From Rhynchopus sp. YZ270_cl-10 (Eukaryota): a DNA stretch of 64,000 nt. Of this stretch, positions 1 through 64,000 are shown piece after piece (position 1 is the stretch's first letter; every line of letters begins with the position of its first letter). The position numbers and the translations under genes are program-made. The stretch covers positions 806,001 through 870,000 of the forward strand of contig OZ037846.1 in the NCBI GenBank assembly GCA_964035575.1, read 5' to 3'. The notes beneath the pieces are model-generated. The model saw nothing but the letters and a program-made list of their open reading frames with translations. It did no database searches and was not told where the DNA came from.

Positions 1-2374
1 GTACTCCAGCTCTCATCACGTACTGCGCACTCTTTGCTCCATCCACTGAAACACAGGCGGAGCGGTCACTGGTGAAGGCTTCAATCCAGTTGAGGTAGCG
101 TGGTGGCAGGTGCTGCTTGTGCTTCAGCGCCTGGAGTATGCGCTTGCGAGACACAGTGTCGAACGCCTTTTCTACGTCGAAGAAGAGTGCGATGGTGGGG
201 CGGTTCTTCCCCGCATTCACCCGCTGCATGAGCGCCGCGAGCTGGTCTATCGTGGAGAGACGACGGCGGAAACCTGCTTGTGTGCGGTGTGGGCCCCTGT
301 ACTGCGGCAGGTCCGGACTGTCTTGCATCTGGGTGATGCGGCACTTGACCATCTTCTCCAAGAGTTTGCAGACGTTGCTCGTAAGAGAGATGGGGCGGTA
401 CGACGCGGGGATGCTGGCGTCCTTCCCGTTCTTAGCGATGGGCACGATGTTGCTCTGCAGCCACGATGTAGGGAGTTCACCTTTGCACCAGGATAAGTTG
501 AGGACGTGGAGTAAGGCGTCTCGTCCTTTGGGCCCAAGATGCAGCAAGAGCTCGTTGTGCATCTCGTCCAGCCCAGGTGCTTTGCCCAGCTTCAGCGAGC
601 TCATCGCGTAATCGAGCTCCGGCAAGGTGAAGGGAGCTTCGCTTGCCGCTCCGGTGTAGCCCTCGCTCTGTGTGTTGTTGCGCCTAGCAGTACGCTGCGG
701 GTTGGCGAGAGAAGGGGGCGTGCCGTCTCCACTCACTGCGGCGAAGTAGCGGGCCAGGGTGTTCGCTTTTTCCTGCGGTGTGTTCGTCAGAGGGCCCTCC
801 GGGGTAGCGACTGCTTTGGTGATGGGTTTCACCCGGTCACCACTGAGCTCCTTCAACCTCCGGAAAGTGCTGCTGAGAGGTGGTGGTGTGGCGGCGTTGC
901 AGCTACGCACCCATGCCTGCTGCTTCGCATCCATGATGGCACAGGAGGTGGCGACCTTCAGCTCTTTCAGCTTTTCGGCTTGGACGTCGCGTTCCGTCTC
1001 GTCCGCGGAGAGAAGTAGTTCCGTCACTGCGTTGCGTTCTTGCAGCAATTCATGGACCTGAGGAGTGAACCACGACTTCCTGACCCTTGGTGTGGAGGTG
1101 TGGTGGGAGAGTGGGATGTGTTTTTCTGCGATGTTCTTGCACAATCCCGTGAACCTGTTCACCGCATCTACACCACCCCAGTTGTGGGCCTTGGGGGCGT
1201 AACGCTCCAGCTCTGCCGTGTACGCCTCCCAATCCGCACGTGACCAGCACCATCTCAGCAGGTGTTCGGGCACTGTCGCGTCTTCGTCGCCTCCGTTCAC
1301 TTCCTCCCCTTCCGTCGGAGGTTGCACTGTGACTAGGATGGGGAGGTGGTCGGAGCCTCGTGCGCAAAGTGTGGTCCATGTGGCTTCTACGTTCCTGTGT
1401 ACCAAGGTGATGTCCGGTGAGGAGAAGACTGTTCCGGAGAAGCGCGTGACTGTGTTGGGGCAGTTGAGCACCTGCATGGCGTTGCGCAGCGACCACTGGT
1501 GTAGCTGTGACCCTTTGGCATCTGGCTTCGCTTGGAGGTCCCACGCAGGGTGGTGGACGTTGAAGTCACCGAGGATGATGGAGTCTTCGTCGGAGGGGAG
1601 GTCATCTGCAGAGAAGTCGTCCACACGCAGGTCATCAGCGCTGCTGCCTACACCTCCAGGTCGGTACAGGTTCGTCACCGTGTACTCCCGATGCTCCGTC
1701 GTCACCCTCACGTCAAGACGCTCCGTCACACTTGGCTCCCCGCTGGCCCAGGTGAGGGAGGCTTGGTGGCTTGTGTGCACCAGCGTGGCTATGCCGCCTC
1801 CGGAGTACAGGCTGCCATTGGGGGTGCGGCGTTGCGTGCGCTTCCGGAGGAAGGGGGTGTAGCCCGGGAACGCGGGCAGTGCTGTCTGCGCCTCCTTCAG
1901 CTCCTGCAGAGCCACCACATCGAAGTGCTCCGAGTTCAGTAACTCCTGCAGCTCCTCTTCCCGTTGCTCGGTCAGCCCGTTGCAGTTGAAGCTGATCAGC
2001 TTCAGGGCTTCCTCTGGTCCGGGGTTCTGCTCTACGTCGCCGCACCTCAGGAGAAGTAGACGTCTCAGGTGTAGGAGGTGGCGTCGTCCCTCAGATGGTT
2101 GCAGCTGTTGGTGCAGTTGTTGGTGCTGTTGCTGTTGCTGCTGCTGGTGATGTTGTCGTTGTTGTTGTTGCTGTTGCCGTTGTTGTTGTAGCTGTCGTTG
2201 CTGCTGTTGATGCTGCTGGTGATGTTGCTGTTGTTGTTGTCGTGTAAGCGGCCACTGCTGTTGATGCTGCTGTTGTTGCTGCTGGTGATGTTGTTGTTGT
2301 TGCTGTCGTATTAGGTGCCTCTGCTGTTGTTGCTGCTGATGTTGTTGTTGTTGGTGCTGCTGTACCGGTACATG
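1..2374 (-). CDS. LINE ORF2 (partial, runs off window): Gln-rich leader, 2A peptide, AP endonuclease, reverse transcriptase
   Basis: Hand translation (absent from the ORF track because no stop falls in the window): LISFNCNGL, VALQE, ILGDFNVHH, SPDITL, SDHLPI (APE); KAPGLD, YRPISLTS, QAGFR, FFDVEKAFDTV (RT). The frame stays open upstream to 3547; the true start is uncertain. Confidence 0.93.
2015..2086 (-). other. 2A-like ribosomal stop-go peptide RRHLLHLRRLLLLRCGDVEQNPG/P
   Basis: Exact D-[VI]-E-x-N-P-G-P consensus at 2038-2015, preceded by a Leu/Arg-rich stretch, in frame and a few residues before the APE domain. Confidence 0.92.
2099..2362 (-). repeat. Coding CAA/CAG-rich trinucleotide tract (poly-Gln/His, about 60 Gln in ~88 codons)
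   Basis: Mixed CAA/CAG/CAT/CAC codons, stop-free and in frame with 2A-APE-RT. Confidence 0.9.
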
Positions 2375-2478
2375 TTTTGTTTTGTGGGGTGTAAGGGGGA
2401 TGAGTTTGTGTGTAGTTGGAGGAGGTTGGATTAGGGAGGGTGGGGTTGGAGAGATAGGGAGGGGGGTGGTGGTATGGT

Positions 2479-4008
2479 CTACACGACGAGTTTGATCCCC
2501 TTGTTGCTGGACCGCGGCGACCGCACCGTTATCCCCCCCGGTATCGTCCGGGCTGTGGGGGAGCTGTCCCCAGTCTTGGCGGACGTGTTCCGCGCGTGCT
2601 CCTCTCCCACCCTCGCCCTTTTCCCTTTGGGCGTTTTCCTGGGGGATCCAGACGGTAGCGGTGTCTTTGACGAAGGCGTTTTGCCTTCTGTCATTTCTTC
2701 GTCGTCTTCTGTGCCGATGTTGGTGTCGACACTTAGTTTTGCACCGCCTTTCTTTCCGGGTCTTGTGCTCTTGGGGAGGAGCTTTTCTAGGCTTAGCGAT
2801 AACCCTTGGCTGATTTGTTCGAAGCCTTCGGCTAAGCCCACCCTCAATTGTGACGCGAGGTTTTCCTGATTTGTAGAGAGAGCTTCCACTCTCTTTTCCA
2901 AATCGGAAAACCTCGCGTCCCAAACTGAGGGTCCGGTCGCTGGTACGCTCCCCTTTCCCTTGCCTCCCTTGTTCCCCTTCCCGCTTCCCTTTCCACCCAT
3001 GTTCTCGTTCCCATCGCCTCCCACCGTTTTGGGGGACGTTGCATTCTGGCCGAGCCCTACTCCCATTGGGAGGGATGCACTGTGTGCCTGCTTCCCCCCT
3101 TCCCCGCTCTTTGCTCCTCCCCTGCCCCCGCCCTGACCCTTTGCTCCTGGGCTTTGGTAGCCCTTTCCTCTCCCCCTCCCCTTTCCTCCTTTTTGTGTCT
3201 GTGAGGTCGTGTTTTTTTTGTGTGGGGGGAATTTTGCATGGATCGCTGGTGTGCAGACGATCACATGCTCCCCAAATGTGAAGGAGGGTGGGGGTGGTGG
3301 TTGTGCATGCATTGCGACCAGGAGTGTGTGTGTGTGTGTGCCCCCGGGTGCTGTTTCCCTGCGAGTGCTTCTCCCTCTGATGTGGCGTCCCGTTTGGGAA
3401 ATTGCCGACACTAGGTCCTCGGGTGTGCACGTGGTGGGTAAGCCGGTGAGCCTGTAGCTTGCCTCCCCTGCCCTTTCCGCCTTTCCCACTGTTTCCCATG
3501 CCTTCACTTCGTCCTTTTTTGGGACAACGATCCCGAAATCCCCTAATCTACCCATTACCACCCTCCCCTGTACTCTTTCCGAGTGCTCCAGCGTTTCGTC
3601 GTAGGACGCTTCTGGCCAAATGACAGACGTAAGTCCGTCATTTGAGTTGGTGCGGGCGGGGCGTATGAACACCCCGTTCACACCGGAGAAAGATAGTATG
3701 GGGGCTTCGGGGGATGGGATTCCCTCAAAATAAAATTTAAAAATATGTTGAGAGGAGGGTTCTCTTCTTTTGAGGGTGAGGGGGGAGACTGACATACGGT
3801 GTTGCGAGAGGACTTGCCTCGCCTTCTCGTCTGCGTTCTTCTCCCACTCGTGCGCGTCATGCGCCGACCGCGACACTTCCAGCAGGAAGCCTTCTGCTTC
3901 CGCTAGCCGTGCCGCGGCTGCTGGCGTTGCCGCCGGGTTCCGGAGCGTGAGGGAGGGTGCCGGCTGCGTCTCTGCATCTACGTCCATGGCGTGATCCGGT
4001 GAGGTCAT
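2479..4008 (-). CDS. LINE ORF1-like protein, 509 aa (possible RRM-like core, Gly/Lys-rich segment, coiled coil)
   Basis: Long intact ORF between the ribozyme and ORF2. Contains an RNP2-like strand (YRLTGLPTTCTPEDLVSAI), GKG/RGG repeats and heptads (FSDLEKRVEALSTNQENLASQL). Confidence 0.8.
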   Translation of the reverse strand: MTSPDHAMDVDAETQPAPSLTLRNPAATPAAAARLAEAEGFLLEVSRSAHDAHEWEKNADEKARQVLSQHRMSVSPLTLKRREPSSQHIFKFYFEGIPSPEAPILSFSGVNGVFIRPARTNSNDGLTSVIWPEASYDETLEHSERVQGRVVMGRLGDFGIVVPKKDEVKAWETVGKAERAGEASYRLTGLPTTCTPEDLVSAISQTGRHIRGRSTRRETAPGGTHTHTLLVAMHAQPPPPPSFTFGEHVIVCTPAIHAKFPPHKKNTTSQTQKGGKGRGRGKGYQSPGAKGQGGGRGGAKSGEGGKQAHSASLPMGVGLGQNATSPKTVGGDGNENMGGKGSGKGNKGGKGKGSVPATGPSVWDARFSDLEKRVEALSTNQENLASQLRVGLAEGFEQISQGLSLSLEKLLPKSTRPGKKGGAKLSVDTNIGTEDDEEMTEGKTPSSKTPLPSGSPRKTPKGKRARVGEEHARNTSAKTGDSSPTARTIPGGITVRSPRSSNKGIKLVV

Positions 4009-4187
4009 GTTGTGGGGGGTGGGATTAGCAAAGGGTAGGTGGGCGTGCGGAGGTTGTTGAAGGGGGGAAAGGAAACAAAAGCAGACTTACCAGGTCAAAA
4101 GCGAATAGCAGGCAAAAGTATAATAGGTATTACACTTAAAATAAAAATAAAAATAAAGTAATGTTAGAAGACCCTGTTTCTCCTGAT

Positions 4188-4332
4188 CGCAGTTCTTAGT
4201 CGGTCACTCTTCTTGACCGTCCAGGGTTGCCACGGGGAGGCGACTGCGGTAGGTATAAAAGGGGTGAGGTGGTAAAAAGTAAATAAGTAAAAACAGGGTG
4301 GCACGTGGTGTTGTGTAATGTGTATAAACCCC
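4188..4332 (-). ncRNA. HDV-like self-cleaving ribozyme
   Basis: P1 GGGGUU (4332-4327)/AACCCU (4228-4223) with G1-U wobble; long J1/2; P2 CGCAGU/ACUGCG; P3 GCC/GGC; L3 UCCCCGU; P1.1 CC/GG; P4 CGGUCA/UGACCG; J4/2 A-C-UAA with predicted catalytic C at 4199. Confidence 0.85.
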
Positions 4333-4690
4333 TTTCCGGTGATCAATTGTTTTGGCTTTGTGTTTCATGTCGTGGTCAGAGAAGGGCGTACCTTATGACC
4401 CAAAGAGAAAGTAAACGTGTGTTGTGTGTCATCATGTCCGGGTGGCCGCATCAACGGTTTCTGGAAAGATCTACCGTAGTAGTCGCCGTCAACCTGCCCG
4501 TCTCCAGAAGTTTGTCCACATGCACCAGGTAGACACATGCAGTTTCCAAAGGTGAGCCTAGGGTCTTTTTGCACTGACTTTGGGGCCACAATACATTGCC
4601 TCACCCTAAGTCAGCGGGACGTTGCGCTACGGAGGGGTGTCCATGTCCAATCCTTGAGAATGCATCCACGGGCGGTCAAGAAAGGTTCTG

Positions 4691-4807
4691 AAGTCCCCCC
4701 ATACCTTCCCAGCCAAAGCCTTCGGGCGGTCAAAGAACTCCTTCCCCTTTCCCCATACCTACTAGGATACATTCGCTCACGACTTAGCAGTTTAAGGTCA
4801 TACTCAG
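4691..4807 (-). repeat. 117-bp segment, inverted copy of 6451-6567
   Basis: Reverse complement matches 6451-6567 by eye; the partner is cut off by the N gap. Confidence 0.9.
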
Positions 4808-6450
4808 AACCGCAATGCACCGAACGTAACCAACCGAACACAACAAACCCGATGTGTACGTAACGATCTGTATGCAACGAACGCAACGCAACGAACGCAA
4901 CGCATGCAACGCAACGCAACCGATGCGTACGTAACGATCGGAACGCAACGAACGTAACCAACCGAACACAACCAACGCAACGCAACCGCTCTGTTCGCTG
5001 CACTCTGTAGATAACGATCTCTACACAACTAACGCAACGCATGCAACACAACGTAACCGGTGTGCACGTAGCTATGTGTACGCAACGTAGCGAACGCAAC
5101 GCAACCAACGCAACGAGTGGTTACAACCCCCCACGCATGGTTCTCACAGCGCGCTGGCACGTTACCCAAGCCGCAAACCCGGTTACCTGACTTAAAAACC
5201 GGGTTTTCGGCCAAAACGCCTGTTTTGCCTGTAGAACCCTGTAGAAGCCTTAAGAAACACGTGTAAAAAAGGGGTACTCGCGACACCCTGGTTTCAGGGT
5301 CTGTCAGGGTTTGGAGGTCTTTGCTTCAGAGAAAGTCTCCTAAAAACCTCCTATCTTCCCAAGAATCCACTTTTTTGACCTCTTTGGACGTTTAGGGACC
5401 TGAAAAAAAATGGCCGAAACCCACCCCGCGCGGGGAGGGTGGGTGGGTGGGGAGGGTGGGTGGGTGGGGTGATCAGCAACCTTAAAGACCTTAACACTGA
5501 GTGTTAAGGAATTTAGTTTTTTTTGGCAATCCTTAACACTCACTGGCTGGTGTGGTTGCTGTATGAAAGGTTTGCAACGCACACAAGCCAACCAACACAA
5601 CCGATGCGATACGTTTCTTGCGTTCACATCGTTCCGTTCAGATCGGAACGATGTGAACGGAACGAATGCAACCGACGCAACGCAACCGTTCGGTACGTAA
5701 CGTCTCGAACCAAAGACACGGAAGCAACGCTACGCACCGAACTCAACGCATGCAACGCAACGCAACCGATGTGTACGTAACGATCGGAACGCAACGAACG
5801 TAACCAACCGAACACAACCAATGCAACGCAACCGCTCTGTTCGTTGCACTCTGTATATAACGATCTCTACACAACGAACGCAACGCATGCAACACAACGT
5901 AACCGATGTGTACGTAGATATGTGTACGCAACGTAGCGAACGCAACGCAACCAACGCAACGAGTGGTTACAACCCCCCACGCATGGTTCTCGCAGGGCGC
6001 TGGCACGTTTCCCAAGCCGCAAACCCGGTTACCTGCCTGAAAAACCGGGTTTTTGGCCAAAACGCCTGTTTTGCCTGTAGAACCCTTAAGAAACACGTGT
6101 AAAAAAGGGGTACTCGCGACACCCTCGTTTCAGGGTCTGTCAGGGTTTGGAGGTCTTTCTCATTTGCAAACCCTAAAAAAAACCTCCTATCTTCCCAATA
6201 ATCCACTTTTTTGACCTCTTTGGACGTTTAGAGACCTGAAAAAAAATGGCCGAAACCCACCCCGCGCGGGGAGGGTGGGGTGATCAGCAACCTTAAAGAC
6301 CTTAACACTGAGTGTTAAGGAATTAAAAACAAATCTCTCAGCGATCTGATTTGAGTTGACGGTCTTGAAAACACTTCGCTGGCTGGTGTGTCAAACGGTA
6401 TGTGTATGGTTTGCACGTAACGCTCGACGTATACGATACACACAATGGTC
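4808..6450. repeat. Degenerate tandem repeat (~810-850-bp period) built on CGCAA/CGAA motifs
   Basis: About 4900-5513 realigns to about 5750-6324. Each unit ends in the palindrome CCTTAACACT-G-AGTGTTAAGG (5489-5509, 6300-6320). Confidence 0.85.
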
Positions 6451-6567
6451 CTGAGTATGACCTTAAACTGCTAAGTCGTGAGCGAATGTATCCTAGTAGG
6501 TATGGGGAAAGGGGAAGGAGTTCTTTGACCGCCCGAAGGCTTTGGCTGGGAAGGTATGGGGGGACTT
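6451..6567 (+). repeat. 117-bp segment, inverted copy of 4691-4807, truncated by gap
   Basis: Direct sequence comparison. Confidence 0.9.
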
Positions 6568-7203: not shown

Positions 7204-7273
7204 CCACACCATGTATCCTTTTATTGGTTGGTTTCCTCGCGGAAACCAACCAACAAAAGGATACATGGTGTGG
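7204..7273. repeat. Near-perfect palindrome (33-bp arms, TCGC loop) overlapping a MITE end
   Basis: CCACACCATGTATCCTTTTATTGGTTGGTTTCC / GGAAACCAACCAACAAAAGGATACATGGTGTGG, one mismatch. Confidence 0.85.
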
Positions 7274-7585: not shown

Positions 7586-10500
7586 ATGGCAACCCGCACG
7601 GGGCCTTCTAATATTCCAGAAGGGAAGTCACTGGGGTCTGCGCCGGTTATCTTTTCGGCGTCTGTTGTTGTGCCGCCCGCTTCCGCTCCTGTTCCTGCCC
7701 CTGCCCCTGCTCCCGCTTCCGCTTCTGCATCTGCTTCTGTCTCTCCCTCCCCTTCTCCGTCTGCAGGGCAAGAAGTATTGACAAATGCGGCCACCACATC
7801 CGCACCACGTGGCAGACGACGTGATTCTCGGAGGAGAGGAGGATATTCGAGTGACCGTTCTGCTGGCTCCTCGGCATCGGAGGGTGGCAGACGTCGTCGT
7901 GGCGCAGGAGGTGGCGCGCTCTCCCGCACGCTCCCAGAGCTGCCCTGCCATGGCCAGGAGGCCTTCATGGAGGACGCTGCCGCTGCCCTTAATACACGCC
8001 TCACTGCGCTAGGCGCTACCTTCCAGCTTCCTCTCCTTGCAGATCGTACCCCGTATGGCTGCGCCATGCTTGTCTCCGATATTCTTATTATACTCCCAAC
8101 CCTTGCTTCCCCGGGTGACACTTCGGTTCTCCTGCAAAGCCTTGCTCTCACCCTAAGCTGGTGTTCCGAACCTTTAAACGAAGAAACCGCATTAGCAGTT
8201 CTCGAGGCAACAGAGGGGTTGGCGGTGCATGGTGACCCTGAGACATCGCATGCGGCTTGTGTAGCGTTGAATGCGTTGTTGAAACATTGTTTGCCGAAGA
8301 AAAAGCAGGGGGTACAGGCAAAGGTGATCACGATGCTTCCGGGGAATGATGGTACCGTTGATGGGACGTTGGCGGAGGTGTATCTCAATGCGGTGTCGGT
8401 GCAGACGAAGACGCAGGCAGCGTTGGCAGTAACGCATCTAGTAGAGCTAGGGTCGCACCTCATGCAGCAGGCCGCACCAACCAGCAGTCGCGCCTTTATG
8501 TCCTATTCGGAACGTCTAGGAAGCATTCTGCACCACCTCCACCACTCCTGCATCACCGCACTCCGACACAAAGACCTCCAACCCTCCAACGCACAACACG
8601 TTGCATCCCTCCTCCACCTCCTCCAATCTGCAGTGGCCCTCACACCGTACTATAAGCTTCCTGCAACGGCAGCGTTACTGTCAGAATTTATCCCAGACTT
8701 ATTGGTCATGGCAGCAGGCAATGAGAAAGGGTCAGTTATAGCGGCAATGCAGGTTCTCTGTTCTGCAGTAGGAAGTAAGCGTCCGTTTCAGCAAATGGCG
8801 TCGGCGCTGGAGGCTGCGCCCGAAGCGTTGGATCAAGTGTGTGAATTGGCGCGTACCCGGCATTTTGTTGCGTTTAAGCATGAGGCAGTGCGGTTGTGGT
8901 CAGCAGTAGCGAGAAACTACTCCTGGATCGTTCTGCCTCGTCTTGAGGTGCTGTTGCAACTCATCCGTGATCTGCAAGAAGCGCCCGACCAAATGTCGAA
9001 GCTCACCGCACTTCTATTCATCTCTGCTGCTTCCGACCAAAGCCTCCCCAGCGTCATGCAGCCAAGCGAAGAGATCCCCGTCATCGACTTCGCCTGCTTT
9101 GGTACAAGCAACCTCCCCCCTGGTGCTGACGCCACCGAAGTCACCACTACAGGCGATATGCTGCGAAAGCCCAGCACCGTCCAGGAAGGTGCCTCCACGC
9201 ATGCCTGCGTCTTCGCGGACAAACAGCCACTCTTTTTGGAAGTCGTCCACAGCCTGGTGCTCCCTCTTGTCAGCGACCCGGTTGCCGCAGTTCGAGGGCA
9301 CGCCGTGCTAGCGTTGGGGAACATCCCACCAGCGACGTTGGACTCTCTGCCATCTGAACAGAGCAGGCTTTTGTTTGACACTGTTCTGGAGACGTGTCGG
9401 GATGACAACAATACGGTGCGTGGCGCTGTGGCCAAGGTGGTTGGGGTGTGGGTGGGTGCTGCGTGCATCTTAGAACGCCGTGGGTGTGTTGTGAACGCAC
9501 TGCTGGAAATGTTCCGAGCGGAGCAGCAGGCACTGCACCAGAAGGCGGCCTGGGCTTTGTCATGTCTCTGCGAAAGACTGCGTGGTGCTGGCGACGTAGA
9601 CGACCAAGAAGCACTGAGCAGCATTGTGCGAGGTTGCATGGAGGTGTTGGACCGGCTGCCGAACAAAGTTCCTTGGAACGTTGTGCGTGCGCTTGGGAAT
9701 AGCGGGCTTCTGTATGCCGGCCCGTTGGATAGTGTGCTGCGTGCTTTGTCACGGCTTTTTGATGATTCAAATGTTAAAGTGCGTTGGAACACTGCGTACG
9801 CGATAGCCCAGATCTTCCGCAATCCGCATCTGAGGGTGGTTTACCAAGAGGCCAGTCAGAGTCGGTCTCCCTCACCACAAGGTGCGCTTGCGTTGGTCAC
9901 CAAGCTCGCAACAGTGCTGCAAAACGAACAGAACTTCAAGGTGCGGATCCAGGCGTGCTGGGCGTTGGCTGCACTGCAGGCCTTCCCGATCCAGGGGAAG
10001 ACTCTTCCTCTCGTGCTCGGGGCGGTGCTTAAGGCATTACATTCATGTGACAGCCACATCGATCATGAGCAATATAAATACCGTGATGTGCTGACAGTGT
10101 CGCTAAAGGGGTTGATCCTGCATGTACTCCGGTTTTGTATGAAGGTGGCAAAAGGAGCAACTGGCAGCACACTCTCTTCAGAAGATAAACACGAAGGTAT
10201 TTCAATCTGGCTGAATTTTTTTTCTACAGTGGAGATTGCACAAACTGTGGCAACACAGCCGAGGCAACTACACTACTCCAACTTTCGACTTTTATTCAAA
10301 AAAAAGTCGAAAGAGAAGAGCCCAAAAAAACGCGCTTTTTGTAGTCTAGGGGCAGGGGCCGAACGCATTTTTTTTACCTTTCTTTCTTTATTTTTTCCCA
10401 GCGTTTTTGACACATTGTGCCTGAAATTCTGAGAATTTAACTTCTATTCTTATCAAAACAAACCCCCTTTTCTCTCTTTCACTTGTAGTGAGGCCTTAAC

Positions 10501-13500
10501 AGGAGTTAGTCGCTAACAAAGAAGCGCACCTATCTCTTAACTGATAAAGTTAACTACAGTGAAATATAATACAAAACAAGCAGAGTAGCAAAAACAAAAA
10601 AACAAATATAGTGGAGTTCATCCTCGGGTGTCTACACTAATACAACCAAGTTTTCACAAAAAACAAAAACAAAAAACAAACATACTTTCCAACCCCTCTT
10701 CTCTCACAGTGGTGTCGTGCTTAGTTGATCTGCGGCCTCATATTGTGGAGGTGTTGGAAGGCATGTTACCGCCCTTGGACGAGGACATGCGTGACGAAAT
10801 GACTAGCATCTCCTCCCCTACCCCATGCACCGCGAGCTTCATAGACATCGATGAGGTGCCCATCATCACCTCGCAGAACGCAGCGAGCACGTCGCTCTTT
10901 ATTCACGACCCGTATGCAAGAAAAAAACCTAATTTTTGGTACCCCAGGAATAAAAAAAATACCAAGTACGCAATATGGGGTCGTCAGGAGCACCAATTTT
11001 TGTTTTTTTTAAACCCTTTAAGGACCAGAGGGGACATATATGTCCACGCAACCACCTAAATTGGCTTCCACTAGGACTTTTTGAAGATTTTTTTTTTTTA
11101 ATGAGAAGATTTTGTGCGAAATCTTTCAAAAGACGCAAGATTCGATTTTTTTTGACGCTCTCATCCCCTCTCATGCACACCCGGCATTATCACATAATAG
11201 GGTATTTTGGGTCATTTTTTGGGAATAATGTACCATTCTGACGCGCTTGAGTCATAAGAGGATTCAAACTTTGGTGTGCAGGGAACCATTTTGTACGGTC
11301 TTCAGAACGAAACTAAAATAATGGAAAATACCCGCGACTGGGCACAGTAACACGCGTAGTTGCAGTTCCTGACCCTGAACTGGATGTGCCTCTTCTCCGT
11401 GTATTTATTGCATTTTGTCTTTTGAGGGACATTGTACAGAAAATCTATATCAACACGGTCAAGGTACAGAGACACTGGTAGGAGGGTGTTGGTCGACAAC
11501 TTCTTCTTGCTTGGGAAACAGGCGTCTGAAAACAGATTACATGTGCGGGGATGCGGCGTTCACCTTTGTTCAGCACCAGGCCAAGTTGGCCAAAAGTCCC
11601 AAAAGCCCCAACTTTTGTACTGTCCAACCTCTGTACAATTACGGTATATCATACATTCCATGACTTTGCGTATACTTTTTCATATTTTGCACTCAGAAAT
11701 GTGAGATGCATATTTTTGATCGTCCGACCCCGCAATTGAACGTTTCGAATCGGCCGGATCCAAAGAAAAAAAAATCCAGAAAAAAAAATTTTTTTTCCAA
11801 AAAAAATATCAGGGTGAGCGTATTTTTGTTTTGGCTCTCGGTGAGGTGGGTATGTGGCATGTAATTTTTCCCACCCGAAAACCAGCGGAAGTGAATTTCC
11901 GAGCTCCCCGCTTTTCACCATAAAAAAAATCGACCACTTTCGTGGAGTAGAAGTCAATTTAAAGTGGCTCCATGGGTATTTATACAGTAACGTATAGGGA
12001 TTTCAGTGCAGAAAAGGGGGTCGGCTCCACCAAAAGTTGCGTACCGTGGAGTGTGTTTCCGGGCTAAAAAAATGGTCGGAATTGAAAGATTTGTAAAAAA
12101 TAAATCCAAAGAAAAAAAAATCGAAAACTTTCTTCAAAAAAAATCCAATTTAGAGACGCCACTGTGTTGCTACCCAAAGAGGAGGTTTTCTTAAGGAAGC
12201 CCTTAAGAAACCTGCATAGAAACGTGAAAAAAAGGGTCGGCTCCACCAAAAGTTGCATCCCGTGGAGTGTGTTTCCGGGGTAAAAAATTTGTCCGAATTG
12301 AAGGATTTGTAAAAAATAAATCCAAAGAAACAAAAATCGAAAACTTTCTCCAAAAATAAATCAATTTATACCCCGCAGGGTATACTTTATTCCCTCCCTC
12401 CGGCAAAAATTATTACCCTCAAGGGAGCACTTTATCTCCCTGAAGGTCACTTTATCTCCCTGAAGGTCCACTTTATCTCCCTAGGGAGATAAAGTGAGCT
12501 TCAGGGAGATAAAGTGACCTTCAGGGAGATAAAGTGACCTTCAGGGAGATAAAGTGACCTTCAGGGAGATAAAGTAAAAGCTTCAGGGAGATAAAGTGAC
12601 CTTCAGGGAGATAAAGTGGAATTTTTTTTTTTTTTTTAGTTTTGGGCCTAAGGTGAAAAAAACCCACTTCTAGGTACCTATATGGGCCCAAAAATGCCAA
12701 AAAACGAAAAATTTTGCATTTTTGACCATCGGGAGGGCAAAAGTATACCCTACGGGGTATAAAATTACATATTTACCCCCGGGGACTCACATATCTCCCC
12801 TCGGGAGCCAATATTTCCCCTCGGGCCCTACGGGCCCTCGGGGAAATATTGGCTCCCTCGGGGGAGATAAAGTGAGTCCCCGGGGGTAGAATAAATAACT
12901 GTTACAAACGCCACTGTGTTACGACTAAAAGAGGGGGTTTTCTTAAGGAAGTCCTTAAGAAACCTGCATAGAAACGTTCCCAAAGGGGGTACCACAGCCA
13001 AAAATCACCTAACCATCCACAGAGGCATAAAAAAAATCGTGCGACCCCGGAATTGAACGTTTTCGTAACCGATCTTTCCAAAGAAATAAAAATCGAAAAA
13101 AAAATCGGGGGAAAAAATTCATAAAATCCAGCTGTCCACGGACAGTTGCATTTGCGACCCAGGCCGTGCATTGTTGATCCCCGAAAATGGGCGGAAGTGA
13201 ATTTCCGGATCGATCTGAAAAAATTCCGGGGTCGCAACATTTTTTTGGCGGATTTTTTATCACTTTAAACTGGCTCCAGAAACAGGCTTTTCTATACGCA
13301 AAGTCATGGAATGTATGATATATAGTTGGTTGGTACCTTCTCTCCATGCAGTGAGACATTATCTACTAGGACTTTTTGATCGATTTTTTTTTTCTTTTGA
13401 AAGATTTTGAACCGATCTTTCAAATAAAGCCATTTTCGAAAACCGAAAAAACAGGTGCGCAACCGGAATAATTTTTTTCTTCAAAATTTTCAGAAAAAAA

Positions 13501-24695: not shown

Positions 24696-27600
24696 ATGCA
24701 TGGTTCGAGCTTCTTCTGTTTTGTGACCCTTCTGAAAGCTCTCTTTCTCAGTAGTTTCATTCAGAGCGCAGTTGGCATTGCATGTACGGCCGACGCCGGC
24801 GCTGATTGTACTACAACTTGTGGATCGCTTGGAGCTTGTTATAACACCATAATAGATTGCCCTCCGGGATATAAATGTACGATAGAATGTACAGGCGCAA
24901 ACTCTTGCGCTTCCATGGTGGTCAGAGCAGGGGCTGGGGTTGACCTTCAGATCTCATGCACCGCAAGTGCGGCTTGCTACGGCATGGACATCCAATCTGC
25001 TGACGCAGCATCTCTCACGCTCGCTTGTTCAACTGACCCTAGTTCTTGTCTGCAGCTGACATTAAAGTGTCCAACAGCTGGAACATGTGCTGCCGCGTGT
25101 CCTCAAAGATTTTACTGTAGTGACCAAGTCCTAGCAGTTGTAGATAGAACACCTGCTCCATCACCACCAACTCCGTCACCACCTACACCGAGTCCACCGA
25201 CCCCGAGTCCACCGCCTGAATGTACGGCCGACGCCGGCGCCGATTGTACTACTACTTGTGGAGCTTGTGTTCAAATCATCATAAATTGCCCTCTGGGAAA
25301 GAAATGTACGATACTATGTGAAGACACATATTCTTGCTACAACACGGTGGTCGCAGCAGGGGCTGGGGTTGACCTGGAAATAGTATGCACCAATCCTTCC
25401 TCTTGCAGGCGAATGGACATCCAAGCTGCTGACGCAGCATCTCTCACGATCGCCTGCTCATCTGAGACACTTGTTTGTCATGGTCTTGAATTAACGTGTC
25501 CAACAGCTGGAACATGTGCCGCTACGTGTGCTCAGAGAGGGGATTGTAGTGCCGAACTCCTAGCAGTTGTAGATAATCCACCTACATCAACACCTAGTCC
25601 TCCTACTACTTCACCACCTACGCCTAGTCCACCGACACCATCACCACCGACTCCGTCACCACCTACACCTAGTCCACCTACACCAAGTCCTCCGACTCCG
25701 TCACCACCTACACCAAGTCCACCTACGCCTAGTCCACCGACACCATCACCACCGACTCCGTCACCACCTACACCTAGTCCACCAACACCAAGTCCTCCGA
25801 CACCATCACCACCGACTCCTTCACCACCGACTCCGTCACCTACACCGAGTCCACCGACCCCGAGTCCACCGCCTGAATGTACGGCCGACGCCGGCGCCGA
25901 TTGTACTACTACTTGTGGAAATTGTGAGCACATCACGATAGCTTGCCCTCTGGGAAAGAAATGTACGATACTATGTGAAGACACACAATCTTGCTACAAC
26001 ACGGTGGTCGCAGCAGGGGCTGGGGTTGACCTGGAAATAGTATGCACCAATCCTATCTCTTGCAGGAGAATGGAGATCTACGCTGCTGACGCAGCATCTC
26101 TCACGGTCACCTGCTTATCTGGGTCACAAGTTTGTACTTTTCTTGAATTAACGTGTCCAACAGCTGGAACATGTGCCGCTACGTGTGCTCGGAGAGAGTA
26201 TTGTAGTGCCCAACTCCTAGCAGTTGTAGATAATCCACCTACATCAACACCAAGTCCTCCGACTCCGTCACCACCTACACCAAGTCCACCGACACCATCA
26301 CCACCTACTCCGTCACCACCTACACCTAGTCCACCGACACCAAGTCCACCTACACCAAGTCCTCCGACACCATCACCACCGACTCCGTCACCACCTACAC
26401 CAAGTCCACCGACACCATCACCACCGACACCAAGTCCTCCGACACCATCACCACCTACTCCGTCACCACCTACACCTAGTCCACCTACACCAAGTCCTCC
26501 GACACCATCACCACCGACTCCGTCACCACCTACACCAAGTCCACCGACACCAAGTCCACCGACACCAAGTCCACCTACACCAAGTCCTCCGACATCATCA
26601 CCACCGACACCAAGTCCTCCGACACCATCACCACCGACTCAGTCACCACCTACACCAAGTCCACCGACACCATCACCACCTACTCCGTCACCACCTACAC
26701 CTAGTCCACCGACACCAAGTCCACCTACACCAAGTCCTCCGACACCATCACCACCGACTCCGTCACCACCTACACCAAGTCCACCGACACCAAGTCCACC
26801 GACTCCGTCACCACCTACACCTAGTCCACCGACACCAAGTCCACCTACACCAAGTCCTCCGACACCATCACCACCGACTCCGTCACCACCTACACCTAGT
26901 CCTCCGACACCATCACCACCGACACCATCACCACCGACACCATCACCACCGACTCCGTCACCACCTACACCAAGTCCACCGACACCATCACCACCGACAC
27001 CAAGTCCACCGACACCAAGTCCACCGACTCCGTCACCACCTACACCTAGTCCACCGACACCAAGTCCACCGACTCCGTCACCACCTACACCTAGTCCACC
27101 GACACCAAGTCCACCTACACCAAGTCCTCCGACACCATCACCACCGACTCCGTCACCACCTACACCTAGTCCTCCGACACCATCACCACCGACACCATCA
27201 CCACCGACACCATCACCACCGACTCCGTCACCACCTACACCAAGTCCACAGACACCAAGTCCACCTACACCTAGTCCTCCGACACCAAGTCCTCCGACAC
27301 CATCACCACCGACTCCGTCACCACCTACACCTAGTCCACCGACACCAAGTCCTCCGACGCCATCACCACCGATTCCGTCACCACCTACACCAAGTCCACC
27401 GACACCAAGTCCTCCGACTCCGTCACCACCTACACCTAGTCCTCCGACACCATCACCACCGACACCAAGTCCTCCGACTCCGTCACCACCGACACCACGT
27501 CCACCGACACCAAGTCCACCTACACCAAGTCCTCCGACACCATCACCACCGACTCCGTCACCACCTACACCAAGTCCACCGACACCATCACCACCGACAG

Positions 27601-30600
27601 CAAGTCCACCGACACCATCACCACCGACTCCGTCACCACCTACACCACGTCCACCGACACCAAGTCCACCGACACCATCACCACCGACTCCGTCACCACC
27701 TACACCAAGTCGTCCGACACCAAGTCCTCCGACACCAAGTCCACCGACACCAAGTCCTCCGACTCCGTCACCACCGACACCACGTCCACCGACACCAAGT
27801 CCACCGACACCATCACCACCGACACCAAGTCCTCCGACACCAAGTCCACCGACACCAAGTCCTCCGACTCCGTCACCACCTACACCTAGTCCTCCGACAC
27901 CATCACCACCGACACCAAGTCCTCCGACTCCGTCACCACCGACACCACGTCCACCGACACCAAGTCCACCTACACCAAGTCCACCGACACCATCACCACC
28001 GACAGCAAGTCCACCGACACCAAGTCCTCCGACTCCGTCACCACCGACACCACGTCCACCGACACCAAGTCCACCGACACCATCACCACCGACACCAAGT
28101 CCTCCGACACCATCACCACCGACACCAAGTCCACCGACACCATCACCACCGACACCAAGTCCTCCGACACCAAGTCCACCGACACCAAGTCCTCCGACTC
28201 CGTCACCACCTACACCTAGTCCTCCGACACCATCACCACCGACACCAAGTCCTCCGACACCAAGTCCACCGACACCAAGTCCTCCGACTCCGTCACCACC
28301 TACACCAAGTCCACCGACACCATCACCACCGACAGCAAGTCCACCGACACCATCACCACCGACTCCGTCACCACCTACACCACGTCCACCGACACCAAGT
28401 CCACCGACACCATCACCACCGACTCCGTCACCACCTACACCAAGTCGTCCGACACCAAGTCCTCCGACACCAAGTCCACCGACACCAAGTCCTCCGACTC
28501 CGTCACCACCGACACCACGTCCACCGACACCAAGTCCACCGACACCATCACCACCGACACCAAGTCCTCCGACACCAAGTCCACCGACACCAAGTCCTCC
28601 GACTCCGTCACCACCTACACCTAGTCCTCCGACACCATCACCACCGACACCAAGTCCTCCGACTCCGTCACCACCGACACCACGTCCACCGACACCAAGT
28701 CCACCTACACCAAGTCCACCGACACCATCACCACCGACAGCAAGTCCACCGACACCAAGTCCTCCGACTCCGTCACCACCGACACCACGTCCACCGACAC
28801 CAAGTCCACCGACACCATCACCACCGACACCAAGTCCTCCGACACCATCACCACCGACACCAAGTCCACCGACACCATCACCACCGACACCAAGTCCTCC
28901 GACACCAAGTCCACCGACACCAAGTCCTCCGACTCCGTCACCACCTACACCTAGTCCTCCGACACCATCACCACCGACACCAAGTCCTCCGACACCAAGT
29001 CCACCGACACCAAGTCCTCCGACTCCGTCACCACCGACACCAAGTCCACCTACACCAAGTCCTCCGACACCATCACCACCTACTCCGTCACCACCTACAC
29101 CAAGTCCACCGACACCAAGTCCACCTACACCAAGTCCTCCGACATCATCACCACCGACACCAAGTCCTCCGACACCATCACCACCGACTCAGTCACCACC
29201 GACACCAAGTCCTCCGACTCCGTCACCACCTACACCTAGTCCTCCGACACCATCACCACCGACACCATCACCACCGACACCAAGTCCACCGACACCAAGT
29301 CCACCGACTCCGTCACCACCTACACCTAGTCCACCGACACCAAGTCCTCCGACGCCATCACCACCGACTCCGTCACCACCTACACCTAGTCCTCCGACAC
29401 CAAGTCCTCCGACACCATCACCACCGACTCCGTCACCACCTACACCTAGTCCACCGACACCAAGTCCTCCGACGCCATCACCACCGATTCCGTCACCACC
29501 TACACCAAGTCCACCGACACCAAGTCCTCCGACTCCGTCACCACCTACACCTAGTCCTCCGACACCATCACCACCGACACCAAGTCCTCCGACTCCGTCA
29601 CCACCGACACCACGTCCACCGACACCAAGTCCACCGACACCATCACCACCGACACCAAGTCCACCGACACCCAGTCCTCCGACTCCGTCACCACCTACAC
29701 CTCGTCCACCTACACCAAGTCCTCCGACACCATCACCACCTACTCCGTCACCACCTACACCTCGTCCACCTACACCAAGTCCTCCGACACCATCACCACC
29801 TACTCCGTCACCACCTACACCAAGTCCACCTACACCAAGTCCTCCGACATCATCACCACCGACACCAAGTCCTCCGACACCATCACCACCGACTCAGTCA
29901 CCACCGACACCAAGTCCTCCGACTCCGTCACCACCTACACCTAGTCCTCCGACACCATCACCACCGACACCAAGTCCTCCGACTCCGTCACCACCGACAC
30001 CACGTCCACCGACACCAAGTCCACCGACACCATCACCACCGACACCAAGTCCTCCGACACCAAGTCCACCGACACCAAGTCCTCCGACTCCGTCACCACC
30101 TACACCTAGTCCTCCGACACCATCACCACCGACTCCGTCACCACCTACACCAAGTCGTCCGACACCAAGTCCTCCGACACCATCACCACCGACTCAGTCA
30201 CCACCGACACCAAGTCCTCCGACTCCGTCACCACCTACACCTAGTCCACCGACACCATCACCACCGACACCATCACCACCGACACCATCACCACCGACAC
30301 CAAGTCCACCGACACCAAGTCCACCGACACCAAGTCCTCCGACTCCGTCACCACCGACACCACGTCCACCGACACCAAGTCCACCTACCCCAAGTCCTCC
30401 GACACCATCACCACCGACACCATCACCACCGACTCCGTCACCACCTACACCAAGTCCACCGACACCATCACCACCGACACCAAGTCCTCCGACACCAAGT
30501 CCACCGACACCAAGTCCTCCGACTCCGTCACCACCGACTCCGTCACCACCTACACCAAGTCGTCCGACACCAAGTCCTCCGACTCCGTCACCACCTACAC

Positions 30601-31847
30601 CTAGTCCACCGACACCATCACCACCGACACCAAGTCCACCGACACGATCACCACCGACACCAAGTCCTCCGACACCAAGTCCACCGACACCAAGTCCTCC
30701 GACTCCGTCACCACCGACACCAAGTCCACCGACACCATCACCACCGACTCCGTCACCACCTACACCTAGTCCACCTACACCTAGTCCTCCGACACCATCA
30801 GCACCGACACCAAGTCCTCCGACTCCGTCACCACCGACACCAAGTCCTCCGACTCCGTCACCACCTACACCACGTCCACCGACACCAAGTCCACCGACAC
30901 CATCACCACCGACACCAAGTCCTCCGACTCCGTCACCACCGACACCACGTCCACCGACACCAAGTCCACCGACACCATCACCACCGACGCCGTCACCACC
31001 TACACCTCGTCCACCTACACCTAGTCCTCCGACACCATCAGCACCGACACCAAGTCCTCCGACACCAAGTCCACCGACACCAAGTCCTCCGACTCCGTCA
31101 CCACCGACACCACGTCCACCGACACCAAGTCCACCGACACCATCACCACCGACTCCGGCACCACCTACAACGAGTCCTCCAACACCTAGTCCACCGACTC
31201 CGTCACCACCGACACCATCAGCACCGATGACATCAACAGCGACACCAAGTCCGTCGACGCCGTCACCACCTACACCGAGTCCTCCTTCTCCTTCACCACC
31301 GACTCCATCACCACCTGCAGCAAGTCCACCGACTACATCACCAGCGACACCGTTGCCGTCTGTGCTTGGTGGAGGTGTGACATTGATTCCTTCCACCATG
31401 CCACCACCAACTCCAGCACCTTCGACTCCAATACCACCATCACCTTCACCAGTAACTCCAAGACCAGAGACTCCGCCTATTGCAGTGGCAACAGTTATAC
31501 CTACTGCAATTCCAACAGCGGTACCGACAGCAGTTCCAGTAGTAGTACCCACAGCAGTGCCAGCCGCTGTTACGACTGCGATTCCAACAGTGCCTACAAC
31601 GGTTGAAACTGTTGCACCACTTGCATCAACAGTACCCACTGTAATTCGAACAGATGTCCCAACTGCGGTTGCAGCTGCAGTACAGAACGAAGCGGACTCT
31701 GAAATGTATTTTGTGGCCATTGGTGGTGGAGTAGGCGCGCTGTTGGTTGCTGTTGGTATTGGTGCCTTCGTGTGGCATGCACAGGGCAACAAGGGTTACA
31801 GCCCTCAGCAGAGCATAAATGCTAACCACCACACTGAACCGTTTTAG
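24696..31847 (+). CDS. Large Pro/Thr/Ser-rich type I membrane surface protein (mucin/extensin-like), 2383 aa
   Basis: Hydrophobic signal peptide, three ~120-aa Cys-rich repeats starting [14 protein letters not shown], more than 300 TPSPP units, a TM helix ([23 protein letters not shown]) and a short tail; uninterrupted frame. Confidence 0.9.
26240..31170 (+). repeat. Coding 15-bp tandem array (TPSPP)n with higher-order duplications
   Basis: ACACCAAGTCCACCG / ACTCCGTCACCACCT variants; identical antisense ORFs at 27970 and 28705 indicate a 735-bp duplication. Confidence 0.97.
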
Positions 31848-60855: not shown

Positions 60856-63800
60856 GCGGCCATCTCCTCCGGCAAATGGGTTGATGCGGCAGATACCTAC
60901 GCACAGCAGTTGGGTAAGGCAGCAGAGAACACATGCTATACCTCCACATCGTCTGGCAGACGTATCGACTTGGTGCTGGCGAACCACGTGGCTGCCCCTG
61001 CGATCTCCAAAGTGGTGGTCTGGAAAGAGAGCTGCCTCCCGGTACACAGACCGGTGGTGTTGACGTTAGACCTGACGCGATACGAGCAGAAGGCACCGCA
61101 GGCACGCCCTCCCCTTTCTTTGATCGGCGACGACTGGACGAAATGGCCGGCGAAGAAGGAGAAGGAGCTTGCAGCGAAGGTGATGCAGGAGAACGCTGCC
61201 CCTGAAGCCGACCTGACGAAGATGTCGGTTGAAGATCGCTGGGCACGCTTCTGCAAGATTGCGGAGGACTACCTGCTGAAGAGAGGTGCTGCAGACTCAG
61301 ACCCGAAGCAACAACGCCACAGGGGGAGAGGGTGCAACCCGACGTTCTCCGACATCGGACGGCCCGCATGGACTGCGACACGCCGGATGCTGTGAACCTG
61401 GAGACGGCTCAACTGCAGAAGACATGTCGTCAGATGGAGCAGCTCATTGGTGATCGGAGGAAGCGCTTCGGTCAGCCATCTGCAGAATCGTTGAACGAAC
61501 GGCAGCTGTGGGCGAAAATCCGCAAGAAGAAGCATCTACTGAAGAGTGACACCTGGGACCTCGACCTTCCTGGGATAGAGGCGTTGTGTGGGCTCCTTGG
61601 CTGCTTGAAGAAGAGGGGTTTTGTCCTGCTGGAGCAACGGCGTCGGGCCCGCATCAAGGAATGGCGCCGCACAATGAAGGAACACATGAAGGAGAACCCA
61701 GCGAAGGTGTTCTCGTTCCTGCGGAAGGCTACGTCGTCACACACCACGTTCCTGAAACGGGAGGACGGCACGGTTACAGCTAACCTCCAGGAGATGGATG
61801 AACTGCTCATGGATGACCGTGCTTGGGGTGGGGTGTTCCGGATGTACGACGATTCCGAAGAACCTGCGTGGACGACGTTCTTTGATAGGTTCAAGGAACA
61901 CATTCCTGAAGGGACCCCTTGTGTATGCGAACCCCTGACCGCCGACGACCTCCGTACGACCATCGGCAAGATGAAGCGGAAAAAGGCGGCAGGCCTCGAT
62001 GGGTGGAGGGTGGAGGAGCTGAAGGAACTGCCTTTGGCACTGCTGGAGGAACTCGCGCGCTGCCTGAACCTGATCGAGGATACTGGGAACTGGCCCAGGG
62101 TGATTGCGAGGGCGTTGGTGGTGCTCATCCCCAAAGGAGAAGGCGAGGAGCCCCTGAAGCAGCGACCCATAACCATCACCAGTGTGATGTACAGGTTATG
62201 GGCGGCGACTCGACTCCGCAAAGTGGCGACGTGGCAGGAATCCTGGATTCACGAGCGGCAACACGGCTTCCGGAACAAACACGGAACCGAAGACCTGCTG
62301 TGGTTTCTCTGTGCGAAGATGGAGGAGGCTCTGATAGACGACACACCTATCTATCTAGCCTCCTTCGACTATCAGAAGTGCTTTGACCGTGTTCCCCAAG
62401 AGATCATGTTCCAGCTCGTCGAACGGTTGGGTCTTCCCGACAACATGATGCGCCCCATCCGGGGTATATACAAGAAGCTGGGGAGGCGTTTCAAACTTCC
62501 GGCAGGTCTTGGCAAAGAATGGTTTGCGACGAATGGTATCCTCCAAGGATGCCCACTGAGCGTAATCTTCCTGAATGCGCTGGTGGCGGTGTGGATGAAC
62601 GGGGTGGAGAAGGAAACGGGCACGCAGGGGCTGGCGTATGCTGACGACACCAACCTCCTGACGAAGACCCTCGACCAGCTGCGAGCGGGTGTCGCCTTCA
62701 CCGGACACTTTGCAGACTTGACGGGACAACGCGTCCACGCGGGGAAGAGCACGTGGCAGAGCAACCGTCCTGATGAAGAGGAAACTGTGCAGATGAACGG
62801 CGCGGATCTTACTCGCGTCGAGAAGTCGGAGTGCCTGGGGGCGACGGTGCAGGCCCGACAGGCTGGGACGCCCACGCTCCCGACGAAGCTGGAAGACACC
62901 ATCGACGCATGCGGACCGCTAGCAGGTAAGGTGGGATGCCTCCCGCTGACTCAAGGTGAGAAAGCAGGCATCATGCAGGCTGCAGTGATATCGAAATCTG
63001 TGTACGGTATCACGGTGCAGAACCCACCTGAGAAATACATGAACAGTCTTGCAACTGCAGTGGAGAAAGGGGTCCACGGCGTGAACAAGATGAACCGAAG
63101 AAGCGTACCGGTCATGCTGAATGTCTTCGAGAAAGGCCATCTGCTCGACCCCTCGGTGGCATTCGACTACAGAAGGATCATGACGTGGGCGGCGATGATA
63201 CGCAAATCGGATGAGATCTGTTTGCTGGTCGAAAAGTGCAGGTCACGTGCGAAAGCGAAGCAGGCGAAGACTGGAGGACCCATCGGGTTGATTGCGCGAG
63301 CCCTCAGCCGCCTTGCGTGGTCATGGATAGACACGACAAAAGTGAAAACGCACGATGGGAGCATTGTTGATGTGAAGACAGTAAGCTTGGGTAGACTGGG
63401 CCACGTTGTGCGAGAACGGATGTTCTTCATTCGACTCTCCCGTACGAAGACGACTGCGAAGGTCAATGGCAAAGGCAGAGCTAACCTGAAGGGTATTGAA
63501 GCGGGGGTGGATAAGGAGAAAACCCTTGCTCTCACCCGAAGCAAAACTTTGACGGATTACGAGGCGGGGACGCTGCGACACATTGTAGCTGACGGTGCGA
63601 TAACGGGGGTGCGACTTGCGAGAGCGCGCATACGGGACTCGGCCATCTGCGTGCACTGCGAAGCGGGGGTGGACGAAAATCACAAACACTTGTGGTGGGA
63701 ATGTGAAGCATGGAGTAGCATTCGTGCGGAGTACCCCTTGCTGTTGGACATTGACAGAACGACCTGGCCAAACTGTCTCGCTATCTGCGGCATGTGCACA

Positions 63801-64000
63801 CCGGACACACCTTTGGAATGCGCCCGTGTTGCAGACCTGCAGAAGATGATGGTGCGCATCCTCATCGCACGCTCCAAGTGGAGCAGACCGGAAGCGACGA
63901 ACCCGCGACTGCAAGAAGACCGATACCCGTGGACGTGGGCGCCGGAGTTGGACACGACGACGCAACACGCGAACAGTTTGGTGGACTACACCCCCCTGAA
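60856..64000 (+). mobile_element. 5'-truncated non-LTR retrotransposon (LINE B): APE C-terminus, RT, CCHC-type zinc motif; one frameshift near 61360-61395; runs off window
   Basis: RRIDLVLAN..HRPV (APE end); from 61368 in another frame AAGLDGW, QRPITITSVMYRLW, QHGFR, FDYQKCFDRV, GILQGCPLS, YADD (62637), CVHC..H..WEC (63648). Confidence 0.93.

What the first reader, a model, noticed from the sequence alone, without database searches (positions are those of the whole stretch)
4188..4332. HDV-like self-cleaving ribozyme upstream of ORF1
All nested double-pseudoknot elements can be assigned by eye: 6-bp P1 with G1-U, a ~78-nt A/C/U-rich J1/2, P2, P3 GCC/GGC, L3 UCCCCGU, P1.1, 6-bp P4 and J4/2 ACUAA. 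Predicted cleavage is 5' of G4332. Established: R2, L1Tc and some RTE elements use such ribozymes to cut themselves out of host transcripts, which suits an organism with polycistronic transcription.
Basis: partly seen in the sequence, partly recalled or inferred. Interest (0 to 1): 0.8.

Follow-up and report, generated by a model that had tools for sequence, protein, structure and literature searches.

The report
Ribozyme-tipped LINE behind a constant leader
A young retrotransposon family, likely of a diplonemid protist, carries a complete HDV-type ribozyme fold whose predicted cut site falls on the join between the element and a constant, tandemly repeated 479-base leader, so it likely cuts the element free of that leader rather than out of host gene transcripts.

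Summary
All HDV-like elements are at the stated minus-strand positions; a strict descriptor finds this one site in 64 kb and none in 150 resampled windows. Rfam does not detect it. Cleavage is untested, and two competing helices may slow it. It heads a young APE-RT LINE, likely of a diplonemid, with an ORF1, an overlapping ORF2 frame and a 2A-like peptide. Similar folds sit ahead of the 2A in 3 of 7 distant 2A-bearing relatives and in 0 of 73 others.

New here: in public contigs the ribozyme is preceded by a constant 479-bp module (4333-4811) at 2.2-2.7 times its depth. The module ends in three or four A and is followed either by G4332 or by another module. The predicted cut site is therefore a natural genomic boundary, which supports cleavage there indirectly. 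This copy is antisense to the host genes in the window, so release from a host polycistron is not what the data show. The ribozyme is a known kind (L1Tc, R2). The leader architecture and the ORF1-plus-2A layout are a new variant; how the leader is regained is unresolved.

The parts
4188..4332 (-). HDV-like ribozyme fold; predicted cleavage 5' of G4332; predicted catalytic C4199
   Evidence: one invariant contig in runs X3 (4167-4335) and X4 (4185-4335)
4249..4326 (-). 78-nt J1/2. It holds 4265-4257 (can pair with 4336-4328, a rival to P1) and 4298-4289 (can pair with 4181-4172)
4172..4181 (-). 3' flank that pairs with J1/2; predicted attenuator or switch helix
   Evidence: duplex -16.5 kcal/mol, reached by 13 of 3000 resampled J1/2
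4333..4811 (-). Constant 479-bp upstream module ending in 3 or 4 A; found joined to G4332 or head-to-tail to another module; no stable fold, tRNA or Rfam match
   Evidence: fold z +1.56
6447..6567 (+). Second copy of the module's first 121 bp in opposite orientation, on a different flank, cut off by the N gap
   Evidence: 99% identity over 121 bp; flanks
4812..6446 (.). Very high-copy internally repeated sequence between the two module starts
   Evidence: summed contig depth 1e5 to 5e6 over most of 4850-5300 in X3 and X4; self-matches
2479..4008 (-). ORF1, 509 aa, no Pfam family; weak relatives for residues 99-207 and 453-502
2..3547 (-). ORF2 frame, open from 3547 and overlapping ORF1 by 355 codons in the -1 frame; only upstream Met at 3499; slippery-type heptamers at 3523 and 3217; Gln/His-rich stretch before the 2A
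2015..2041 (-). 2A-like motif GDVEQNPGP just ahead of the endonuclease
   Evidence: motif definition in PMC3708506 (passages)
2..2011 (-). AP endonuclease and first half of the reverse transcriptase; runs off the window
   Evidence: PF03372, PF14529, PF00078 above cut-off

Best explanation
The sequence forms a complete HDV-like double-pseudoknot pattern that is predicted to cut the RNA just 5' of G4332, which would separate the LINE RNA from a constant 479-nt leader transcribed in front of it. SHOWN: the fold elements; the APE-RT element behind them; a constant module directly upstream in contigs of three runs; and module ends joined through 3-4 A either to G4332 or to the start of another module. 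INFERRED: (1) Transcription likely starts at or upstream of the module's first G, the module acting as the element's mobile leader or promoter. (2) C4199 would act as general acid with Mg2+, leaving a 5'-OH on G4332 and a leader fragment ending in A. (3) Cleavage is likely co-transcriptional and partial, since J1/2 can pair with the upstream A/G run and with the 3' flank, as in the attenuated L1Tc ribozyme. (4) New copies likely regain the leader when the reverse transcriptase jumps from the cut 5' end onto the free leader fragment, once or more, which would give the same join at module-ribozyme and module-module junctions. I put the fold being a working ribozyme at about 0.85, and step 4 at about 0.35 against its rivals.
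For: Fold and chance controls. Unique full P1 partner at G4332. In X3 the contig graph branches at 4331-4335, and depth steps from 1074 (ribozyme; the listed ORF1 contigs of 878-1087 match it) to 2328-2609 (module). X4 shows 3915 against 9424-10659 (ratios 2.2-2.7). Module-module joins occur with three A (loose end at 4331) and four A (4811 to 4333, depth 183); ribozyme joins likewise (extra base behind 4332 in X1, and at depth 416 in X3). Rough junction arithmetic, assuming 31-mer contigs, puts about half of the module ends before a ribozyme and half before another module; the scaled total is about 2200 against 2328. Both module starts in the window join different non-module flanks at or within 4 nt of the same base, and the X1 contig ends at 4811 by its length. 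HDV-like folds with different sequences, all with a 6-bp P1, precede the 2A in L001, L003 and L005: 3 of 7 2A-bearing loci against 0 of 73 others, Fisher p 4e-4. L1Tc has an active 5' HDV-like ribozyme attenuated by downstream sequence (PMC3185411, PMC4035085; passages). R2 RT template jumping is cited in PMC3774820 (reference title).
Against: No cleavage assay and no RNA data. P1 is 6 bp where R2 ribozymes have about 7 (PMC3774820). A 9-bp rival helix (-13.9 against -6.7 kcal/mol for P1 as duplexes) dominates nested folding, although P1 cannot coexist with P2 in that model; 182-269 of 3000 shuffles do as well, so it may be chance. With the 3' flank, P2 and P4 fall to about 0.1 and a rod at -38.5 beats -28.6. 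Copies show no listed variation, so there is no within-family covariation. The descriptor for relatives was loosened after I saw L001 by eye; it also gave one antisense hit (L028). Depth sums of contigs are not copy numbers, and rare flanks may be dropped or among the 143 unshown loose ends. In X3 the main module contig carries 3 extra upstream letters, so most module starts may share a predecessor. The element's 3' end lies outside the window.
Confidence: 0.55

Rival explanations
1. R2-like targeting: the module is a separate repeat (a host tandem unit or a mobile short retroposon). The LINE inserts at its A-rich end, is transcribed by read-through, and the ribozyme frees it at G4332.
For: Constant upstream sequence and a sharp boundary at the predicted cut; tandem modules exist; precedent in R2 (PMC3774820, passages).
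Against: By rough arithmetic few module ends are free of either a ribozyme or another module. Both module starts in the window sit on unrelated flanks. The module has no tRNA or Rfam identity and no stable fold.
Confidence: 0.22
2. The module is a 5' monomer copied as part of uncut RNA (like mouse L1 monomers, recalled). The ribozyme is attenuated or inactive in most transcripts and serves at most to make a translated mRNA.
For: Strong rival helices; 6-bp P1; module joined to the ribozyme in X1, X3 and X4.
Against: It does not explain why the tandem unit ends exactly at the predicted scissile bond. All catalytic positions are intact, and the fold recurs in distant relatives.
Confidence: 0.12
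3. The module is the element's own 3' end. Elements lie head to tail, and the ribozyme cuts monomers out of array transcripts.
For: A short, variable A run at the module end looks like a tail; L1Tc tandems are described (PMC3185411).
Against: A profile of relatives' C-termini finds no match in the module. 5' truncation would not give one fixed module start on different flanks.
Confidence: 0.08
4. Chance resemblance; no ribozyme.
For: No Rfam match; descriptors written after seeing the sequence.
Against: 0 hits in 150 resampled windows; position at an element boundary; parallel folds in relatives.
Confidence: 0.03

Closest known systems
L1Tc / ingi (Pr77) HDV-like ribozyme of trypanosomatids
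   Same: Euglenozoan APE-RT LINE with a 5' HDV-like ribozyme, a 2A-like peptide before the APE domain and a downstream attenuating region (PMC5814959, PMC3185411, PMC4035085; passages).
   Different: 145 nt with a 78-nt J1/2 instead of 77 nt; two G-C pairs possible in P1.1; has an ORF1, which Ingi-clade elements are reported to lack (PMC3708506); preceded by a constant tandem module rather than by host DNA.
R2 ribozymes in 28S rDNA
   Same: Long J1/2, a constant upstream sequence, and junction patterns that mirror the cleavage site (PMC3774820, passages).
   Different: APE endonuclease here; the upstream module is not rDNA; whole 479-bp tandem units rather than 13-28-nt duplications.
2A-bearing APE LINEs (Ingi, CR1, L2, Crack, Rex1 clades)
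   Same: GD(V/I)ExNPGP motif at the front of ORF2 (PMC3708506, passages).
   Different: Most lack ORF1; the few exceptions named are CR1 elements. Here the ORF2 frame overlaps ORF1 for 355 codons, and about 490 residues precede the 2A.
Schistosoma Perere-3 with twister variants
   Same: LINE 5' end set by a ribozyme, with a variable number of A at the cut (PMC8501958, passages).
   Different: Different ribozyme class; varied host target sites with duplications next to the cut.

Membership tests
HDV-like ribozymes | Helices P1, P2, P3, P4 and P1.1 in nested double-pseudoknot order | tested here: met
   definition from PMC13635239 (passages)
HDV-like ribozymes | Catalytic C and downstream A in J4/2; U and G in L3 for the U20-G25 pair | tested here: met
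   C4199, A4196; U4238, G4233
HDV-like ribozymes | P1 of about 7 bp beginning at the cleavage site | tested here: inconclusive
   6 bp with G1-U; 6 bp also in L001, L003 and L005; two literature searches for short P1 found nothing
HDV-like ribozymes | Covariation of helices among homologues | tested here: inconclusive
   No variants listed among copies. Three distant elements keep the pairings with other letters but do not align reliably.
HDV-like ribozymes | Match to an Rfam HDV-type model | tested here: not met
   the three relatives were also missed at gathering level
HDV-like ribozymes | Mg2+-dependent self-cleavage leaving a 5'-OH | not testable with these tools
   needs an in vitro assay
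Ingi clade LINEs | APE and RT in ORF2 | tested here: met
Ingi clade LINEs | RNase H after RT | not testable with these tools
   off the window; PF00075 in the four nearest relatives P0001-P0004
Ingi clade LINEs | 2A-like peptide before APE | tested here: met
   activity not tested
Ingi clade LINEs | Single ORF, no ORF1 | tested here: not met
   509-aa ORF1; criterion from PMC3708506
Ingi clade LINEs | RT groups with named ingi/L1Tc | not tested
   No named reference was returned. The tree groups it with P0001-P0004 and D. papillatum P0008 (SH-aLRT 99; P0008 is a long branch).
Ingi clade LINEs | Pr77 hallmark sequence, poly(A) tail, target-site duplication | not tested
   No Pr77 alignment made; the 3' end is outside the window.
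R2 elements | Restriction-like endonuclease and 28S rDNA target | tested here: not met
   APE domain; no rRNA match upstream

The most novel reading that the evidence does not exclude
A LINE whose HDV-like ribozyme cuts inside its own transcript, releasing a 479-nt promoter-bearing leader that the reverse transcriptase stitches back on, once or several times, by end-to-end jumping (or RNA re-ligation) at each transposition. It also makes its enzyme from a frame overprinted on ORF1 and freed by a 2A peptide.
Probability: 0.3. Interest if true: 0.78.

Novelty: new variant of a known kind. Interest (0 to 1): 0.52.

Why it matters
The ribozyme is a known class in a known setting, but my searches found no report of one in diplonemids ('ribozyme' occurs 0 times in the D. 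papillatum genome paper and in its 7 held supplements). A 5' ribozyme would discard any promoter upstream of it. L1Tc solves this by placing the promoter inside the ribozyme, and R2 by relying on its target. A constant leader whose tandem boundary is the cut site points to a third solution or to a new self-made target. Either is testable with long reads from this young, homogeneous family. The ORF1 / overlapping ORF2 / 2A layout also bears on how LINEs express ORF2.

Tried and rejected
No own genome is held. No RNA holder was listed among 13 runs. An exact module pattern found 0 matches in metagenome contigs; a ribozyme pattern and the protein found 0 in viral contigs. X5 has no cover over about 4127-4340, and one of its loose-end joins looks like a proximity-ligation junction, so its depths were not used. 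X7 covers only 3751-3901; X8 covers neither ribozyme nor module; X10 covers the module only, at depth 2. The idea that 4691-6567 is a DNA transposon with 121-bp inverted ends was dropped: the repeat is the start of the module, cut by the gap. The idea that the module encodes the ORF2 C-terminus was not supported. No second HDV-like fold was found in the module. The single-sequence ORF1 model had pLDDT 31 and was not searched; ESM Atlas hits for ORF1 were all below 0.9. The profile homologue search covered only very long proteins and returned 1. The J1/2-flank helix has no counterpart in L005 (538 of 1000 resamplings as good). The ORF1 frame being open is not significant given the ORF2-frame protein (P 0.095). 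Earlier findings: three look-ups returned nothing. Ruminski et al. 2011 is not held and is known to me only through citation in PMC5786205. The tree left out L003 (stops in frame) and all rows matching 450 residues or fewer.

Full report
OBSERVATION. A strict descriptor gave this single hit on both strands of 64 kb and none in 150 resampled windows. A looser one gave the same single hit and 9 hits in 100 resampled windows. Both were written after seeing the sequence, and an intermediate version missed the site and gave a chance hit. G4332 is the only position in 4249-4811 that makes all six P1 pairs. The core folds into P2, P3 and P4 on its own (z -2.19). Rfam has no match.

THE ELEMENT. Behind the fold lie ORF1 (4008-2479, 509 aa, no Pfam family) and a frame with APE and RT domains that runs off the window. 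A 2A-like motif stands at 2041-2015. The nearest proteins are P0001-P0004 (38-40% identity, all with RNase H), and D. papillatum P0008 is also among the 27 hits. In a quick tree of 52 rows the window groups with P0001-P0004 and P0008 (SH-aLRT 99); no named ingi or L1Tc was available. The host is probably a diplonemid: porphobilinogen deaminase at 51415 is 60% identical to that of D. papillatum, within a small top group of 56-70% hits ahead of about 50% cyanobacterial ones. The four long non-RT host ORFs lie on the + strand, and the element is antisense to them.

ORF2 EXPRESSION. The ORF2 frame is open from 3547, overlapping ORF1 by 355 codons in the -1 frame. Permuting synonymous ORF1 codons gives 6.2 stops on average, and none in 1 of 5000 permutations. 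T is absent at 73 of 73 stop-forming third positions but present at 24 of 189 others (p 5e-4); the signal lies mainly in the second half. The reverse test is not significant (P 0.095), but P0210 matches the end of ORF1 at 60% (E 1.6e-4). The frame's only upstream Met is at 3499, behind seven other AUGs, and slippery-type heptamers occur at 3523 and 3217. Frameshifting, internal entry or trans-splicing would all fit; none is tested. Ingi-clade elements are reported to lack ORF1 (PMC3708506, passages).

WHAT LIES UPSTREAM. Seven of 13 listed runs were laid; all are contigs and none is on record as RNA. In X3 the ribozyme is one contig at depth 1074, like the listed ORF1 contigs (878-1087), with no variant listed, while 4333-4811 lies at 2328-2609. 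In X4 the figures are 3915 and 9424-10659. The graph branches at 4331-4335. The module's end, with three or four A, is joined either to G4332 or to the start of another module; both starts begin GG. X1 spans 3741-4811 unbroken with four A. Rough arithmetic on X3's junction contigs, assuming 31-mers, gives about half of module ends before a ribozyme and half before a module, and the scaled sum is near the module depth. Contig depth is not copy number, rare joins can be dropped, and 143 loose ends were not shown. In the window the module start occurs twice, at 4811 (-) and 6447 (+), on different flanks. The module has no stable fold (z +1.56) and no tRNA or Rfam identity, and it does not match relatives' C-termini. 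The structure-based cut site and a structure-independent genomic boundary thus coincide within 2 nt. Junction patterns were used the same way for R2 (PMC3774820, passages).

RELATIVES. Of 113 related stretches in metagenomes, the best 80 were fetched. Seven carry a 2A-like motif. Three of these (L001, L003, L005) have an HDV-like fold on the sense strand before it, each with a 6-bp P1 and different letters; J1/2 is 2, 2 or 27, and 169 nt. None of the other 73 has a sense hit, and one has an antisense hit (Fisher p 4e-4, partly post hoc). They are distant (27-30% identity), so they support the class in this setting, not covariation in this family.

WILL IT CUT? Nested folding shows two competitors. 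Positions 4336-4328 pair with 4265-4257 (9 bp, stronger than P1 as a duplex, but matched by 6-9% of shuffles). J1/2 also pairs with the 3' flank (-16.5 kcal/mol, 13 of 3000), and once the flank is present P2 and P4 drop to about 0.1. The program cannot score pseudoknots, so this does not predict inactivity. It resembles the downstream attenuator and switch of L1Tc (PMC4035085, passages) and suggests a short co-transcriptional window.

MECHANISM. Most likely the RNA starts at or before the module, the ribozyme cuts 5' of G4332 with C4199 as general acid (chemistry from PMC13635239, passages), and the LINE RNA begins with the ribozyme. Copies nevertheless carry the module, so it must be regained or targeted. 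I favour re-addition by RT jumping from the cut end onto the released leader: it explains the identical joins, the tandem units ending at the scissile bond and the fixed module start on unrelated flanks. The rivals are R2-like insertion at the end of a separate repeat, copying of uncut RNA, and a module at the 3' end. The unseen 3' end of the element decides among them.

COMPARISON AND NOVELTY. It works like L1Tc and R2 ribozymes; six LINE clades are reported to have 5' ribozymes (PMC5786205, passages). It meets the structural tests for HDV-like ribozymes except the usual P1 length and an Rfam score. It is Ingi-like but fails the no-ORF1 criterion, so I do not file it as Ingi. Searches of the held library found no diplonemid ribozyme, and the titles and abstract starts listed showed no such leader. 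The library lacks most subscription journals and bioRxiv supplements; for the D. papillatum paper I saw passages and a term search of 7 supplements. Other papers seen as passages: PMC5814959, PMC12278014, PMC3185411, PMC6765202, PMC8501958. Mouse L1 monomers are recalled, not looked up.

VERDICT. A real and probably functional HDV-like ribozyme of a known kind, in an element with an unusual leader and coding layout: new variant, interest 0.52.

Noticed in passing
window 3547-2479 (-): The ORF2 frame overlaps ORF1 for 355 codons without a stop, far fewer than synonymous permutation gives; possible dual coding or frameshift entry.
   Followed up: partly
window 4090-3978 (-): A GTAAGT donor-like site, pyrimidine tract and branch-like motif lie between the ribozyme and ORF1; an AG after a U-rich tract near 4136 could be a trans-splice acceptor. 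Seen by eye only.
   Followed up: no
window 61233-63998 (+): A second, unrelated reverse-transcriptase ORF running off the window (PF00078); no HDV-like fold was found near it.
   Followed up: partly
window 4812-6446: Extremely high-copy repeat family with internal short repeats and palindromes; related motifs at 16986 and 23206.
   Followed up: partly
window 7204-7273: Near-perfect 70-bp inverted repeat upstream of the HEAT-repeat gene; weak microRNA-model hits far below gathering scores.
   Followed up: no
window 24696-31844 (+): 2383-aa protein with Cys-rich domains, a very long TPSPP repeat and a C-terminal membrane-like segment.
   Followed up: no
window 43007-45760 (+): 918-aa protein with a bacterial-type solute-binding domain, a hydrophobic segment and a C-terminal region resembling receptor cyclases by eye.
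   Followed up: no
L001 270-339, L003 251-377, L005 72-310: Unannotated HDV-like ribozyme candidates ahead of 2A-bearing LINEs; L003 has a short direct duplication at its G1.
   Followed up: partly
L010 7001-7122: A U5 snRNA match (87 bits) lies downstream of the LINE-like ORF; possible snRNA-associated insertion.
   Followed up: no
L007 186 and 456: Two 2A-like motifs in tandem ahead of the endonuclease.
   Followed up: no
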